Positions 4,247 through 7,197 of a stretch of 27,354 nt of DNA are shown in pieces. Below the pieces are notes generated by a model. The model was not told the origin of the DNA. It was given only the letters and a program-made list of their open reading frames with translations, and searched no databases. The stretch is from a virus. Taxonomy: Duplodnaviria > Heunggongvirae > Uroviricota > Caudoviricetes. Position numbers and translations under genes: made by a program. How positions within the stretch are numbered: position 1 is the first letter of the stretch; every line of letters starts with the position of its first letter. The stretch lies in the IMG/VR virus record IMGVR_UViG_2703719365_000004, positions 1 to 27,354 of that record. One strand, written 5' to 3'.

Positions 4247-5242
4247 GTGACCGTGAGAGCACTACTGACTCCTGAAATTGCCCCGCGTATGGGGATCGTA
4301 TTGTTCAGGCCAGGTTCAGAGCTGATGCCCCTGTTTATGCAGGGGCGTGTCCTGCTGGAGCCTGAGCCGGAACGTTATTCATCTTTCGCCAGTGGTGCCG
4401 TTCCGGCGGCATCACAACCGCTGGCGGATGATCCTGCCGTTCGGGCCGTGTTCCGCAATGAGGCAGTGATCCGTCGTGCTGGTGGCGTGGAATGTCTTGA
4501 AAGCTGGTTACTTCGTGAAAAAGGCTGCCAGTGGCCTCATTCCGACTGGCACAGCGAGAACATGACCACAATGCGACACGCTCCGGGCGCAATCCGTCTG
4601 TGCTGGCACTGCGATAACCAGCTGCGCGATCAGTTCACGGAACGGCTGGAATCAATGGCAACGGATAACTGTGCCCGCTGGGTGTTGTCTGTTGTGCGTC
4701 GGGATCTCGGTTTTGATGACAGTCACGTTGTGACAATGCCGGAACTGTGCTGGTGGCTGATTCGTAATGACCTGGCGGATGCCTTACCGGAAAGTGCAGC
4801 CCGTAAGGCACTTAGATTACCGAAGCCTGTTGTGCCGTCTGTTACCCGGGAAAGTGACCTTGTGCCTTCGGTTCCTGCCACCAGCATCATCCAGGATAAA
4901 GCGAAAAAGGTGCTGGCGCTGAAAGTGGATCCTGAGTCGCCGGAGTCTTTTATGTTACGCCCAAAACGTCGCCGCTGGGTTAATGAAAAGTACACGCGCT
5001 GGGTTAAGACACAGCCGTGTGCATGTTGTGGAAAGCCTGCTGATGATCCCCACCACCTGATAGGTCACGGTCAGGGAGGAATGGGTACAAAAGCGCATGA
5101 CCTCTTTGTGTTGCCTTTGTGCAGAAAGCATCACGACGAGCTGCATGCGGATACCGTGGCATTTGAAGAGAAGTATGGCTCCCAGCTGGAGCTGATATTT
5201 CGTTTTATCGATCGTGCGCTGGCAATAGGCGTACTGGCGTAA
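4247..5242 (+). CDS. DUF968-domain protein (YdfU-like)
   Basis: 331-aa ORF with C-terminal Cys/His cluster CACCGKPADDPHHLIGHGQGGMGTKAHDLFVLPLCRKHHDELH. Lies immediately upstream of a Q-like gene, as YdfU does in the Qin prophage of E. coli K-12. GTG start is presumed to be translationally coupled. Confidence 0.8.
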   Translation: MTVRALLTPEIAPRMGIVLFRPGSELMPLFMQGRVLLEPEPERYSSFASGAVPAASQPLADDPAVRAVFRNEAVIRRAGGVECLESWLLREKGCQWPHSDWHSENMTTMRHAPGAIRLCWHCDNQLRDQFTERLESMATDNCARWVLSVVRRDLGFDDSHVVTMPELCWWLIRNDLADALPESAARKALRLPKPVVPSVTRESDLVPSVPATSIIQDKAKKVLALKVDPESPESFMLRPKRRRWVNEKYTRWVKTQPCACCGKPADDPHHLIGHGQGGMGTKAHDLFVLPLCRKHHDELHADTVAFEEKYGSQLELIFRFIDRALAIGVLA

Positions 5243-5255
5243 GTGGAGAACGAGC

Positions 5256-6008
5256 ATGAACTTTGAAGCCTTACCGAAATATTACTCCCCAAAATCTCCA
5301 AAATTGAGCGATGACGCACCGGCGACAGGCTCTGGTGGTTTAACAATTACGGATGTAATGGCTGCGCAGGGGATGGTGCAGTCGAAAGCACCGCTTGGGT
5401 TTGCCTTATTCCTGGCAAAAGTTGGTGTTCAGGATCCTCAGTTTGCGATTGAAGGTCTGCTCAATTACGCGATGGCACTGGATAACCCGACATTGAACAA
5501 ATTGAGTGAAGAAACCCGGCTACAGATCATTCCTTACCTTGTGAATTTTGCCTTTGCTGATTATTCCAGGTCTGCGGCAAGTAAGGCTCGCTGTGAGCAT
5601 TGTGCTGGTACTGGATTTCATGATGTATTGCGCGAGGTGGTGAAACACTCCAGAAGCGGGGAATCTGTTATCAAGGAAGAGTGGGTGAAGGAACTGTGTC
5701 AGCATTGTCATGGTAAGGGAGAAGTCAGCACAGCGTGCAGAGGGTGTAAGGGTAAAGGTATTGTCCTGGATGAAAAAAGAACCAGGCTTCATGGCACGCC
5801 TGTTTATAAGGTTTGTGGGCGTTGCAATGGAAACCGGTTTAGCCGTTTACCAACCACACTGGCGCGGCTTCATGTCCAGAAGCTGGTACCAGACCTGACG
5901 GATTATCAGTGGTACAAAGGATATGCAGATGTCATTGATAAACTGGTTACAAAGTGCTGGCAGGAAGAAGCGTATGCTGAGACACAATTGAGGAAAGTGA
6001 CGAGATGA
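5256..6008 (+). CDS. Late-gene antitermination protein Q (QuuQ/YdfT-like, with DnaJ-like CxxCxGxG zinc-finger repeats)
   Basis: 250-aa ORF with CEHCAGTG, CQHCHGKG, CRGCKGKG and CGRCNGNR motifs. Located just upstream of a strong promoter-plus-terminator unit and the lysis genes. Confidence 0.8.
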   Translation: MNFEALPKYYSPKSPKLSDDAPATGSGGLTITDVMAAQGMVQSKAPLGFALFLAKVGVQDPQFAIEGLLNYAMALDNPTLNKLSEETRLQIIPYLVNFAFADYSRSAASKARCEHCAGTGFHDVLREVVKHSRSGESVIKEEWVKELCQHCHGKGEVSTACRGCKGKGIVLDEKRTRLHGTPVYKVCGRCNGNRFSRLPTTLARLHVQKLVPDLTDYQWYKGYADVIDKLVTKCWQEEAYAETQLRKVTR

Positions 6009-6037
6009 ATGATTTTCGACGAAAATGGCGACATGAT

Positions 6038-6068
6038 GCTTGCATTTTTCAAAAAAAATGGATAATAT
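6038..6068 (+). promoter_or_regulatory. Putative late promoter PR' (with presumed qut region) downstream of Q
   Basis: -35 TTGCAT, 17-bp spacer (TTTTCAAAAAAAATGGA), -10 TAATAT, about 30 bp after the Q stop codon. An intrinsic terminator follows roughly 50 nt further on. Confidence 0.5.
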
Positions 6069-6113
6069 TTTCTCAATGATAGGCATTGTGTGTCCGGCTT
6101 TAATAAAAAGTAG

Positions 6114-6141
6114 AAAACCCGCTGATGTGCGGGTTTTTTTT
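6114..6141 (+). terminator. Rho-independent terminator (tR'-like) after the PR' leader
   Basis: AAAACCCGC-TGATGT-GCGGG followed by a run of eight T. Confidence 0.65.
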
Positions 6142-6219
6142 CGGAATTTTAGATGTGTGGCATTGAAATGGTATTCGGCGAGTAGGTAGAATTTAAACTT
6201 TCGTCTCGTCTGGATCGAC

Positions 6220-6762
6220 ATGATGTTTCAAGCCTTCCAAACAGCAGTATTTAAAAATGTTGCAGAGTATTTAAAAGGGCGCTTCCCTCATAAGTCGTTA
6301 GGGCTCGTATATGCCGACGAGCTGGTACTAAAAGATATGGAGTTCCTCAAGGCTAACAATAAACTGCGGTGGGATCCCGGACTAAAGTCGCGAGTGTTTA
6401 TGGATATGATGGAAGAACACCCGATAAAACTAGTTGTTTATTATCGTGGGGAGCCTATTGGATTTGCATTTGGGTGTTACTGTAAGCCGAAAAATGCGGT
6501 GCATATTTGCTGGATGGAAAAACGTAATGATGCACATGAAGACCTAGACCATCAGATGCTTGGTATCGTTTTGGATTGCTTCTCTGCATATGCACGATTT
6601 CTGAACCTTCAGGGTGAATCTATTGATTCGATAGCTTTAGTTAGTCCAGTTGATGGGGCAATAAGATACTATACTGAAAGTGGTTTTGAGTACATTGCTG
6701 ATTACGAACGAGGTGGTTGCGCAATGGTGCTTAGGAGCGTTTTACCTAACCAATCAGTGTGA
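6220..6762 (+). CDS. Cargo (moron) protein, GNAT-fold acyltransferase-like, function unknown
   Basis: 180-aa ORF in a visibly AT-rich block. The C-terminus (AIRYYTESGFEYIADYERGGCAMVLRS) resembles the GNAT C-terminal helix/strand and QMLGIV sits where motif A (Q/R-x-x-G-x-G/A) would be. Its own sigma70-like promoter (-35 TTGAAA, 18 bp, -10 TAGAAT) lies at about 6170-6200. No good SD. Confidence 0.6.
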   Translation: MMFQAFQTAVFKNVAEYLKGRFPHKSLGLVYADELVLKDMEFLKANNKLRWDPGLKSRVFMDMMEEHPIKLVVYYRGEPIGFAFGCYCKPKNAVHICWMEKRNDAHEDLDHQMLGIVLDCFSAYARFLNLQGESIDSIALVSPVDGAIRYYTESGFEYIADYERGGCAMVLRSVLPNQSV

Positions 6763-6953
6763 GTTAGATTCTTAATTTCTCCAGAATCATTACAAAAGTA
6801 TTGAAAACCTCTTTTAGTTGATGCAATCTGGATCCACACAAAGCACACACAAAATGTACTACGCTTTACTTTATACATCTTCAGGTAACAAACTTTGTTG
6901 CCTTTATGCTTCAAAGAAGCAACTACAGCTTAGTGCTGAACAAGGGGATTTTT

Positions 6954-7139
6954 ATGAAACATCATGAGCAGATAGAGATTGAGGCAGCTAAAGTCGTCGC
7001 CGAACTCTTTGCTGGCAATGCATCTCCAATGGAAACCTTTGGTATTACATGGAGTCAAACTCAGATGTTAGAGCGTAAGAATCCTGGTGTAGTGATCAAA
7101 CTAGTACCGGATGACGGTAAAAAACTTGCGTATTGCTGA
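6954..7139 (+). CDS. Small hypothetical cargo protein (about 61 aa) co-located with the GNAT-like gene
   Basis: ORF track 6906..7139. The internal ATG at 6954 (MKHHEQIEIE...) has a strong SD (AAGGGGA, about 7 nt spacing). AT-rich codon usage matches the upstream gene. Confidence 0.5.
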   Translation: MKHHEQIEIEAAKVVAELFAGNASPMETFGITWSQTQMLERKNPGVVIKLVPDDGKKLAYC

Positions 7140-7197
7140 TAATTTTTAAAGATTTTTTCAGCTAGAGAATCGATTATTTTACTATAAATCGCGAAGG

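What the first reader, a model, noticed from the sequence alone, without database searches (positions are those of the whole stretch)
6954..7139. 61-aa partner ORF with strong RBS downstream of the GNAT-like gene
The ORF MKHHEQIEIEAAKVVAELFAGNASPMETFGITWSQTQMLERKNPGVVIKLVPDDGKKLAYC has an AAGGGGA SD and sits about 190 bp after the GNAT-like gene, inside the same promoter-terminator unit. The size and pairing fit an antitoxin, immunity or regulatory partner, but the order (large gene first) is the reverse of most GNAT toxin-antitoxin pairs and no RHH or HTH signature is evident. The 190-bp spacer could hold a second promoter.
Basis: inference. Interest (0 to 1): 0.45.

Follow-up and report, generated by a model that had tools for sequence, protein, structure and literature searches.

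The report
Small Cys-tailed partner of prophage GNAT
The 61-codon ORF is a real, strongly conserved gene that always sits just downstream of an orphan acetyltransferase-fold gene; the two move between prophages as one small cargo cassette whose function is untested and is most plausibly a toxin/antidote-like or anti-phage module.

The parts
6163..6192 (+). Promoter-like site of the cassette (TTGAAA-18-TAGAAT), just after the Q-dependent tR'-like terminator.
   Evidence: One search found the site. The same ATTGAAA...GGTA(A/G)A(A/C)T arrangement lies upstream of the large gene in other copies, including the Siccibacter copy that sits beside an integrase rather than after Q.
6220..6762 (+). 180-aa orphan GNAT-fold protein (WP_021519681.1, phrog_11949).
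6801..6827 (+). Conserved promoter-like box in the spacer: TTGAAA (6801-6806), 15 nt, TGCAAT (6822-6827), with TG at 6819-6820.
   Evidence: Mean pairwise identity is 0.70-0.86 in the box against 0.2-0.5 in the rest of the spacer, among copies whose synonymous sites are saturated. The same box occurs in 14 of 20 diverged spacers. Good sigma-70-like sites occur at the equivalent place in another four: two Photorhabdus-type copies (TTGAAA-17-CATATT) and the remote copies L026 and L028.
6883..6903 (+). Conserved stem-loop between the box and the small ORF. It is a weak terminator here (tail TTATGCTT).
   Evidence: One search lists it as terminator-like. RNAalifold recovers it with 3 compensatory pairs in 6 sequences. 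Relatives L016, L017, L023, L024, L025, L046 and L054 have a hairpin plus a run of five to eight T at the same place, and L047 has a hairpin with a displaced T run (CTGGATTTT), all 80-94 nt before the small ORF.
6942..6948 (+). Shine-Dalgarno AAGGGGA of the small ORF.
   Evidence: Read directly. An AAGGGG/GAGG-type SD precedes the aligned ATG in most of the 20 diverged copies; L045, L049 and L052 have only a weak GGGAAA-type match or none.
6954..7139 (+). 61-aa protein (WP_000680348.1, phrog_11292): an acidic three-helix domain (residues 2-42) followed by a disordered tail (43-61) that ends in Cys.
   Evidence: establish the ORF and its annotation. AF2 gives pLDDT 79, helices 2-19, 25-28 and 33-42, and a tail below 60. 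The family alignment has invariant P25, M26, F29, G30, W33, M38-L-E-R41, P44, V47, A59 and C61. dN/dS is about 0.04.
7194..7230 (+). Intrinsic terminator-like hairpin (13 bp, 6 GC) plus a T run that closes the cassette.

Best explanation
SHOWN. The 61-aa ORF is a translated-type gene under strong purifying selection. It is the obligate partner of an orphan GNAT-fold protein. The two genes, with their own promoter-like sites and a terminator, form a cassette of about 1 kb with low G+C (a 'moron'). This cassette has been inserted into accessory hotspots of different temperate phages of Enterobacterales. INFERRED, the mechanism I commit to. The small protein docks on the GNAT through its conserved flexible C-terminal tail (NPGxVIKLxPDDGKxxA(x)C), which places the Cys in or next to the acceptor/cofactor cleft. 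In this way it holds the enzyme in check, acting as an antidote to a potentially harmful transferase. The separate conserved promoter in the spacer, followed by a stem-loop or terminator that ends the large gene's transcript, keeps the small protein in excess over the enzyme. That arrangement resembles toxin-first modules whose antitoxin has its own promoter. The module would then act as prophage cargo for addiction or abortive-infection/exclusion: the enzyme is released when the small protein is lost or titrated. Late Q-dependent read-through would express both genes during lytic growth. The helical domain is not a DNA binder. It probably contacts the GNAT or a third party.
For: Real gene: against relatives 80-90% identical in protein, pN is 0.05-0.11 and pS 0.6-0.88, which gives dN/dS 0.04-0.05; the median over 65 usable pairs is 0.18. 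A Shine-Dalgarno site is conserved. Obligate pairing: 24 of 26 distinct large-gene variants have a homologous small ORF on the same strand 80-240 nt downstream (jackhmmer E <= 1e-18); one more has a 54-aa look-alike ending in TAC, and one contig is too short. The two families have matching cluster counts and contigs. Mobile unit: homology between phages with different Q, holin and flanks covers only window ~6185-7145. G+C is 36-42% against about 50% in the flanks. Cargo positions: the Q-lysis gap with at least two Q families and several holin families; beside int; after the lysis genes; inverted, beside umuDC; and between a gpA-like gene and the portal gene in a P2-like element, which is the defence hotspot described in PMC9122126 and PMC13586616. 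GNAT fold. Partner architecture: helices plus a disordered but sequence-conserved tail with a near-invariant Cys. Separate transcription signals in the spacer. When the GNAT is absent, the small gene has lost its tail (L087-L090). One natural variant has a 44-bp deletion in the GNAT while the small gene is intact.
Against: There is no experimental evidence of toxicity, of complex formation or of phage defence. The GNAT matches no toxin-type GNAT model. It is acidic (median pI 5.2). It lacks a clear R/Q-x-x-G-x-G/A loop: the nearest match, Q112-MLG-IV, lies inside helix 3 of the model, and G115 is P, S or T in remote members. The small protein is about as conserved as the enzyme, which is unusual for antitoxins, and it has no DNA-binding domain. 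A near-invariant Cys is explained more naturally by chemistry at that thiol (as a substrate, carrier or metal ligand) than by simple steric blocking. Two remote partners carry the Cys further from the end, and one (L055) has none in the tail. Hotspot context is suggestive only. PADLOC finds nothing. All 98 E. coli copies are at least 99% identical, and in the 60 records listed both genes are annotated, so they say nothing about selection on either gene alone.
Confidence: 0.32

Rival explanations
1. Enzyme-substrate or carrier pair. The GNAT-fold enzyme modifies the small protein itself, most likely at the tail Cys thiol (S-acylation or another transfer). The acidic helical protein with its flexible Cys-tipped arm would then be the product or a protein-borne thiol carrier, and the modified form would do the work.
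Confidence: 0.25
2. Adaptor or targeting subunit. The helical domain binds a third party (a host or an incoming-phage protein) and the tail tethers it to the GNAT. The pair would then be a two-subunit transferase that modifies that target, for host takeover, anti-defence or exclusion.
For: The helical domain occurs alone, without tail or GNAT, in other phages. Examples are a 47-aa version on a 168-kb viral contig and tail-less Photorhabdus-type copies. This shows it is a separable module. In most copies the cassette sits at the head of the late operon, so it would be strongly expressed in lytic growth.
Against: The tail-less copies next to lost GNAT genes may simply be decaying remnants. No candidate target exists. 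The cassette's own promoter and terminator, and the inverted and int-adjacent copies, point to expression in the lysogen rather than to a dedicated lytic role.
Confidence: 0.2
3. The small protein is a DNA-binding transcription regulator (an RHH/HTH antitoxin-type autorepressor) that acts on the conserved box in the spacer.
For: The spacer box is conserved beyond the two hexamers, including the stretch between them, as an operator might be. The segment PMExFG(I/T)xW..(E/Q)MLER superficially resembles a helix-turn-helix.
Confidence: 0.05
4. The ORF is a chance reading frame or an unrelated neighbour, and the conserved thing is an RNA or DNA element.
For: None beyond its small size. The spacer does contain conserved non-coding elements.
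Against: dN/dS is about 0.04 with saturated synonymous sites. The start codon and SD are conserved. The protein-level profile finds partners where the DNA is no longer alignable.
Confidence: 0.02

Closest known systems
GNAT/RHH type II toxin-antitoxin pairs (AtaT-AtaR, TacT-TacA, ItaT-ItaR, KacT-KacA)
   Different: The known toxins form one monophyletic GNAT group with the R/Q-x-x-G-x-A/G P-loop (PMC7180214). This protein matches no GNAT sequence model and has no clear P-loop. Here the small gene is downstream, 191 nt away, with its own promoter-like box. It has no RHH/DUF1778 domain, it is acidic, and it carries a near-invariant tail Cys.
Toxin-first modules whose antitoxin has its own promoter (e.g. 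rnlAB of prophage CP4-57, mqsRA, higBA); recalled from the literature, not tested here
   Same: The gene order is large/toxic gene first, small antidote second. Extra transcription signals feed the second gene. The module is prophage-borne, and for rnlAB there is an anti-phage role.
   Different: There is no sequence or fold relationship. In those systems the genes abut or overlap, whereas here an 80-240-nt spacer with a stem-loop separates them. Toxicity of this GNAT is not shown.
Phage 'morons' and accessory hotspots (lambda bor/lom, stx between Q and S, P2 old/tin between gpA and gpQ)
   Same: The cassette has its own promoter and terminator, a G+C lower than its flanks, and a presence/absence pattern among otherwise related phages. 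It occupies the same insertion hotspots: the Q-lysis gap, the int end and P2 gpA-gpQ.
   Different: The cargo itself is a previously uncharacterised two-protein family.
GNAT-like S-acyl-transfer and acyl-carrier-dependent enzymes (CurA/GphF loading domains, FeeM, HlyC-type acyltransferases)
   Different: The partner here has no phosphopantetheine-type Ser motif (position 24 is S, T, Y or N). The thiol would be a protein Cys. No pathway genes accompany the pair. The similarity is at the level of the generic fold only.

Membership tests
GNAT superfamily (fold level) | Mixed alpha/beta GNAT fold: a central sheet of 6-7 strands with four helices. | tested here: met
GNAT superfamily (sequence level) | A match to an acetyltransferase sequence model (Pfam Acetyltransf_* or NCBIfam). 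| tested here: not met
   There are no Pfam hits at E <= 1 and no NCBIfam hits at E <= 10. A profile search against PDB sequences finds no GNAT. A profile search of 1.84e9 representatives returns only the family's own 36 clusters.
GNAT superfamily (cofactor site) | The pyrophosphate-binding motif R/Q-x-x-G-x-G/A at the beta4-alpha3 junction (PMC7180214). | tested here: inconclusive
   Between strand 93-101 and helix 108-130 lies the invariant acidic/His loop EKRNDAHEDLD. The nearest motif-like string is Q112-M-L-G115-I-V117, which is 4 residues into the helix, and G115 becomes P, S or T in remote members. The hhalign comparison with RimI was too weak to fix the register. An RYY...GF segment at 149-156 fits the usual motif B.
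GNAT/RHH type II toxin-antitoxin (AtaRT/TacAT type) | The toxin belongs to the monophyletic aminoacyl-tRNA-acetylating GNAT group. | tested here: not met
   No sequence model is matched. The structural similarity to TacT and AtaT is no higher than to RimI, NatD and others.
GNAT/RHH type II toxin-antitoxin (AtaRT/TacAT type) | The antitoxin is encoded upstream and has an RHH (DUF1778) DNA-binding domain. | tested here: not met
   The small gene is downstream in all loci. The model has helices only and no N-terminal strand. The helical domain is acidic. There is no Pfam hit.
GNAT/RHH type II toxin-antitoxin (AtaRT/TacAT type) | The toxin arrests growth, and the cognate small protein neutralises it by direct binding. 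| not testable with these tools
   This needs expression and neutralisation assays.
Phage moron / accessory cassette | An autonomous unit with its own promoter and terminator, atypical composition, inserted between conserved phage genes, and present in only some related phages. | tested here: met
   Promoter-like and terminator-like sites are present. G+C is 36-42% against about 50%. Homology is limited to ~6185-7145. The flanks differ between copies. The cassette is in 98 of 5426 complete E. coli genomes and 1 of 50,697 phage records. Promoter and terminator activity were not measured.
Known anti-phage defence systems | A match to a model of a described defence protein. | tested here: not met
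   PADLOC-DB v2 gives 0 families for either protein at E <= 10. Only hotspot context points to defence.
RiPP precursor / carrier protein with a modifying enzyme | The small protein is covalently modified by the adjacent enzyme, and accessory processing or export genes are usually present. | not testable with these tools
   There are no accessory genes in the cassette. Modification can only be shown by mass spectrometry.

The most novel reading that the evidence does not exclude
The pair is a new kind of two-protein prophage module. An orphan GNAT-fold enzyme with a non-canonical cofactor loop acts on, or is gated by, the thiol of a Cys at the tip of a flexible tail on a small acidic helical protein. 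This would be either a protein-borne thiol 'arm' that is acylated or a covalent/metal-mediated latch. The module would work as a previously unrecognised anti-phage or addiction system, carried in the Q-lysis and P2 gpA-gpQ hotspots of Enterobacterales prophages.
Probability: 0.3. Interest if true: 0.7.

Novelty: new variant of a known kind. Interest (0 to 1): 0.5.

Why it matters
Prophage accessory hotspots are a proven source of new defence and toxin systems. Here a compact, self-contained two-gene cassette, present in about 2% of complete E. coli genomes (many of them O157:H7) and in Proteus, Photorhabdus, Erwinia, Cronobacter, Pragia and Morganella prophages, has no assigned function and fits no catalogued family. 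If the GNAT is a toxin or effector gated by a Cys-tipped tail, that would add a mechanistically distinct branch to GNAT toxin biology and a new candidate defence system. If the Cys is acylated, it would be an unusual protein-thiol carrier. Either outcome can be tested with simple expression, mass-spectrometry and phage-challenge experiments. If neither holds, it remains an ordinary conserved hypothetical moron.

Tried and rejected
1. Family libraries. Pfam, NCBIfam and PADLOC gave nothing for either protein. PHROGs gave only two 'unknown function' families.
2. PDB sequence profiles found no relatives.
4. Rfam on 5900-7800 gave only sub-threshold hits on the tR' region and nothing in the spacer.
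5. Literature. There were no papers for the accession or PHROG identifiers, and none combining GNAT, C-terminal cysteine, small protein and phage.
6. Leader-peptide attenuation. I noticed Tyr-rich mini-ORFs between the spacer box and the stem-loop, read by eye from the spacer sequences: MYYALLY... from 6854 in the window, MSYYYYY* in L006 and (V)IYYNY... in L003. I considered a Tyr-codon leader that senses charged tRNA. I rejected it because the mini-ORF is 4 codons long in L044, is absent from L047, and has one Tyr in L017.
7. A minus-strand promoter in the box. The -10 is not conserved, so I dropped it.
8. HTH reading of PMExFGxxW..MLER. I rejected it on charge and on helix length.
The probability was 1.6%, so it was not usable.
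10. The plasmid hit CP044351.1 is an error-ridden copy of the same cassette (74 gaps in 1300 nt, frameshifts in both genes) and is uninformative.
11. A correlation between loss of the EKRxDAH loop and loss of the tail Cys in remote pairs is not consistent: L055 has lost both, whereas L028 has lost the loop but keeps the Cys.

Full report
**Where the window comes from**

The window is a lambdoid prophage of E. coli. The segment 6000-7450 is 100% identical to chromosomes of many O157:H7 and other strains and 99.9% identical to the induced phage vB_EcoM-689R6. The cassette at 6190-7230 is in 98 of 5426 complete E. coli genomes, always as a single copy at >= 99% identity.

RefSeq annotation and ORF listing give this gene order:

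| Window coordinates | Strand | Feature |
|---|---|---|
| 4247-5242 | + | DUF968 |
| 5256-6008 | + | Antiterminator Q (PF03589) |
| 6114-6145 | + | tR'-like terminator |
| 6220-6762 | + | 180-aa gene |
| 6954-7139 | + | 61-aa ORF |
| 7194-7222 | + | Terminator |
| 7397-7711 | + | 5'-truncated N6_N4 DNA methyltransferase pseudogene |
| next, through 9121 | + | Holin, lysozyme, Rz/Rz1 |
| 9153-9494 | - | bor/iss |

The two genes therefore occupy the slot between Q and the lysis genes where Stx phages carry stx.

**Checking the observation**

- The ORF, its translation, the AAGGGGA (6942-6948) and the 191-nt spacer are exactly as described.
- PGAP already calls it WP_000680348.1, and it matches phrog_11292 over its full length.
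- Start choice: the ATG at 6954, not the upstream ATG at 6906, is the conserved start.

**Is it a gene?**

Yes. I collected 20 diverged copies and made a codon alignment.
- Against relatives 80-90% identical in protein, the proportion of synonymous differences is 0.60-0.88, which is near saturation. The proportion of non-synonymous differences is only 0.05-0.11.
- Where dS can be estimated, dN/dS is 0.038-0.053 against the close relatives. The median over 65 usable pairs is 0.18.
- Most copies keep an AAGGGG/GAGG-type SD just before the aligned ATG; three (L045, L049, L052) have only a weak match or none.

**Is it a partner of the upstream gene?**

Yes.
- A word-seeded search with the small protein alone found only relatives at >= 80% identity. 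The large protein has relatives down to 41% identity.
- Every context I read had a 54-67-aa ORF on the same strand 80-240 nt downstream. These contexts come from Siccibacter, Proteus, Pragia, Photorhabdus, Limnobaculum, Erwinia and metagenomes.
- A profile of these small ORFs retrieved 29 clusters whose contigs match those of the large-protein clusters one for one.
- Across the 57 loci scored that carry either gene (the window plus 56 fetched loci) there are 26 distinct large-gene variants. Twenty-four have a small ORF recognised by iterative HMM search (E <= 1e-18). In one (L028/29, large protein 20% identical) a 54-aa ORF with the same layout and ending in TAC follows. One contig ends too early.
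- In the reverse direction, a scan with the small protein found 28 of 32 viral loci with the GNAT gene just upstream. The other four have tail-less or frameshifted copies of the helical domain only.
- DNA similarity between phages with different Q proteins, holins and flanks is confined to window ~6185-7145.
- That stretch has 36-42% G+C against about 50% around it.

The unit is a two-gene moron.

**The large protein**

- No Pfam, NCBIfam or PADLOC model matches it. A profile search of 1.84 billion representative proteins returns only 36 clusters, all 170-197 aa apart from five fragments.
- The usual R/Q-x-x-G-x-G/A pyrophosphate loop (PMC7180214) is not evident. Its place is taken by an invariant acidic/His loop, W98-x-EKR-x-DAH-x-D...Q112, which degenerates in the remotest members.
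- An RYY...GF segment fits motif B.
- The family is acidic, with median pI 5.2.

**The small protein**

- AF2 (pLDDT 79) predicts helices at 2-19, 25-28 and 33-42, followed by a disordered tail from residue 43.
- No fold or sequence relative exists in the PDB.
- The helical domain carries a net charge of -2 to -7, which argues against an RHH/HTH-type DNA-binding antitoxin.
- The tail is disordered but its sequence is conserved: NPG(I/V)V(I/V)KL(A/P)PDDGK(K/R)xA.
- In the 26-sequence main family a Cys is invariant within the last 1-5 residues, as AYC, ACC, ACG, ALCC or ACGGIR.
- Remote partners keep a tail Cys: RRVCY in a P2-like element, DEDCLQHVR in Photorhabdus, LKCPEE...YAY in another group, and TAC in L028. 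L026 has it mid-tail, and one partner (L055) has none in the tail.

**The spacer**

*Promoter-like box.* Among seven copies whose synonymous sites are saturated, a 30-35-nt block (window ~6795-6834) keeps 0.70-0.86 mean pairwise identity. The rest of the spacer has 0.2-0.5. The block reads TTGAAA (6801-6806), 15 nt, TG-a-TGCAAT (6819-6827), which is a -35 plus extended -10 promoter-like site. The box itself recurs in 14 of 20 diverged spacers. Good TTGAAA-17-CATATT, TTTGCA-17-TATAAT or TTGACC-17-TAGAAT sites lie at the equivalent place in four more, the Photorhabdus-type copies L023 and L054 and the remote copies L026 and L028.

*Stem-loop.* Between 22 and 66 nt further on lies a stem-loop (window 6883-6903). 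RNAalifold recovers it with three compensatory pairs in six sequences. In several other lineages it is a textbook hairpin-plus-T-run terminator, 80-94 nt before the small ORF. A second short hairpin, CAGC...GCTG (6926-6938), abuts the SD.

The order is box, then hairpin, then ORF. This leaves three possibilities:
- a leader with an attenuator-like hairpin;
- a short RNA, with a further promoter downstream;
- a terminator for the large gene's message, with read-through in the window's lineage, where the T run is degenerate.

Only transcript mapping can settle this.

*Large-gene promoter.* The large gene's own promoter-like site (6163-6192) also travels with the cassette, including to the Siccibacter copy beside an integrase.

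**Context as a clue to function**

The cassette is found in these positions:
- between Q and the lysis genes, in phages with at least two unrelated Q families and several holin families;
- after the lysis genes in Pragia;
- at the int end of a Siccibacter prophage;
- inverted, next to umuDC, in the Q-lysis gap;
- between a gpA-like replication gene/ogr and the portal gene in a P2-like element. This is the gpA-gpQ hotspot that holds old/tin and many defence systems (PMC9122126; PMC13586616).

These are classic accessory or defence cargo sites.

Two further hints fit an enzyme that can be costly and a small protein whose tail exists for the enzyme. Both are anecdotal.
- One natural variant has a 44-bp deletion in the GNAT gene with the small gene untouched.
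- Where the GNAT is missing, the small gene has lost its tail.

**Mechanism**

| Model | My probability | Summary |
|---|---|---|
| Antidote-like partner | about 0.3 | The tail, with its Cys, enters the GNAT cleft and keeps a potentially harmful transferase in check. The spacer signals supply the small protein in excess. |
| Substrate or carrier | 0.25 | The Cys thiol is what the enzyme modifies. This explains the near-invariant Cys and the strong conservation better, but it leaves the product without a user. |
| Adaptor | 0.2 | The helical domain binds a third party and the tail tethers it to the GNAT. The helical domain exists on its own elsewhere. |
| DNA-binding regulator | 0.05 | Unlikely. 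|
| Chance ORF | 0.02 | Unlikely. |

For the antidote model, the parallels with how GNAT antitoxins work and with toxin-first modules whose antitoxin has its own promoter are recalled from the literature, not tested here. Under this model the module would serve addiction or abortive infection/exclusion.

Which steps are shown and which are inferred:
- Shown: coding status, obligate pairing, cassette limits, GNAT fold, domain layout, conserved spacer elements, and hotspot locations.
- Inferred: physical interaction, the role of the Cys, promoter and terminator activity, and any phenotype.

**Comparison with known systems**

The module works most like a toxin-first toxin/antitoxin or a two-gene defence module, but it is not a member of the GNAT/RHH family. 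The toxin clade, the P-loop, the gene order, the RHH domain and the tight operon were all tested and are not met or are unclear. It is a bona fide moron. Both genes are already in databases as hypothetical proteins, so their existence is not new. The pairing, the architecture and the hotspot distribution appear to be undescribed in the literature I could search.

**Verdict**

This is a real, conserved, uncharacterised two-gene prophage cassette of moderate interest (0.5). It is best classed as a new variant of a known kind.

Noticed in passing
window 6040-6145: Right after Q lies a pR'-like promoter (TTGCAT 6040-6045, 17 nt, TAATAT 6063-6068, read by eye). About 70 nt downstream is a strong terminator (6114-6137 plus a T run). 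This is the layout of the short Q-dependent late leader RNA (lambda 6S; the StxS sRNA of Stx phages, from memory). Rfam gives only sub-threshold terminator-like hits here.
   Followed up: partly
window 7397-7711: A 5'-truncated N6_N4 DNA methyltransferase pseudogene (PF01555 positions 156-209 only) follows an AT-rich 170-nt stretch after the cassette terminator. In locus L019 a full-length 348-aa N6_N4 methylase sits at the same place after the pair (window 7511-7740 aligns). The window's copy therefore looks like a deletion remnant.
   Followed up: partly
L005 5150-6200 versus L006: These are otherwise identical metagenomic copies. L005 has a 44-bp deletion between short direct repeats that removes the conserved SGF...GGSA end of the GNAT gene. 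The spacer and the small gene are intact.
   Followed up: yes
L087 1477-1620; L088-L090 around 1495-1680: The helical domain of the small protein occurs without a GNAT gene and without the Cys tail. One is a 47-aa version on a 168-kb viral contig among lytic-phage-like genes. Others are Photorhabdus-type copies whose reading frame diverges after ...AE(R/Q)LD.
   Followed up: partly
L056 3001-3842; L028 4001-4881; L003 5241-6186: Remote or displaced copies of the pair sit in three other places: the P2-like gpA/ogr-portal hotspot (L056); inverted beside umuDC in a Q-lysis gap (L028); and between a host SBP_bac_5 gene and the integrase of a Siccibacter prophage (L003).
   Followed up: partly
window 6854-6967; L006 and L003 spacers: Tyr-rich mini-ORFs start at a semi-conserved AATGnnCTAC between the spacer box and the stem-loop: MYYALLYTSS... 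in the window, MSYYYYY* in L006 and IYYNY... in L003. They look like attenuation leader peptides but are not conserved (4 codons in L044, absent from L047).
   Followed up: yes
window 6926-6938: A short conserved hairpin, CAGC-N5-GCTG, lies immediately upstream of the SD of the small ORF. The CG pair is kept in 6 of 6 sequences and there is one compensatory change. It may modulate ribosome access.
   Followed up: no
window 8880-9062 within 8660-9121; 9153-9494 (-): An Rz1-like lipoprotein ORF ([20 protein letters not shown]...) is embedded out of frame in Rz. A bor/iss lipoprotein gene lies on the opposite strand just after the lysis cassette. That is a second classic moron, also with low G+C.
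   Followed up: no
L011 9152-9433: In one phage that carries the pair, a gene with the Acb2/Tad1 hairpin domain (anti-CBASS/anti-Thoeris sponge family) lies about 3 kb downstream in the same late region.
   Followed up: no
L091 (plasmid record CP044351.1, 39590-40100): An IncX4 'plasmid' record of 111 kb holds a copy of the same E. coli cassette with 74 gaps in 1300 nt and frameshifts in both genes. This is almost certainly long-read sequencing error and possibly a misassembled prophage segment.
   Followed up: yes
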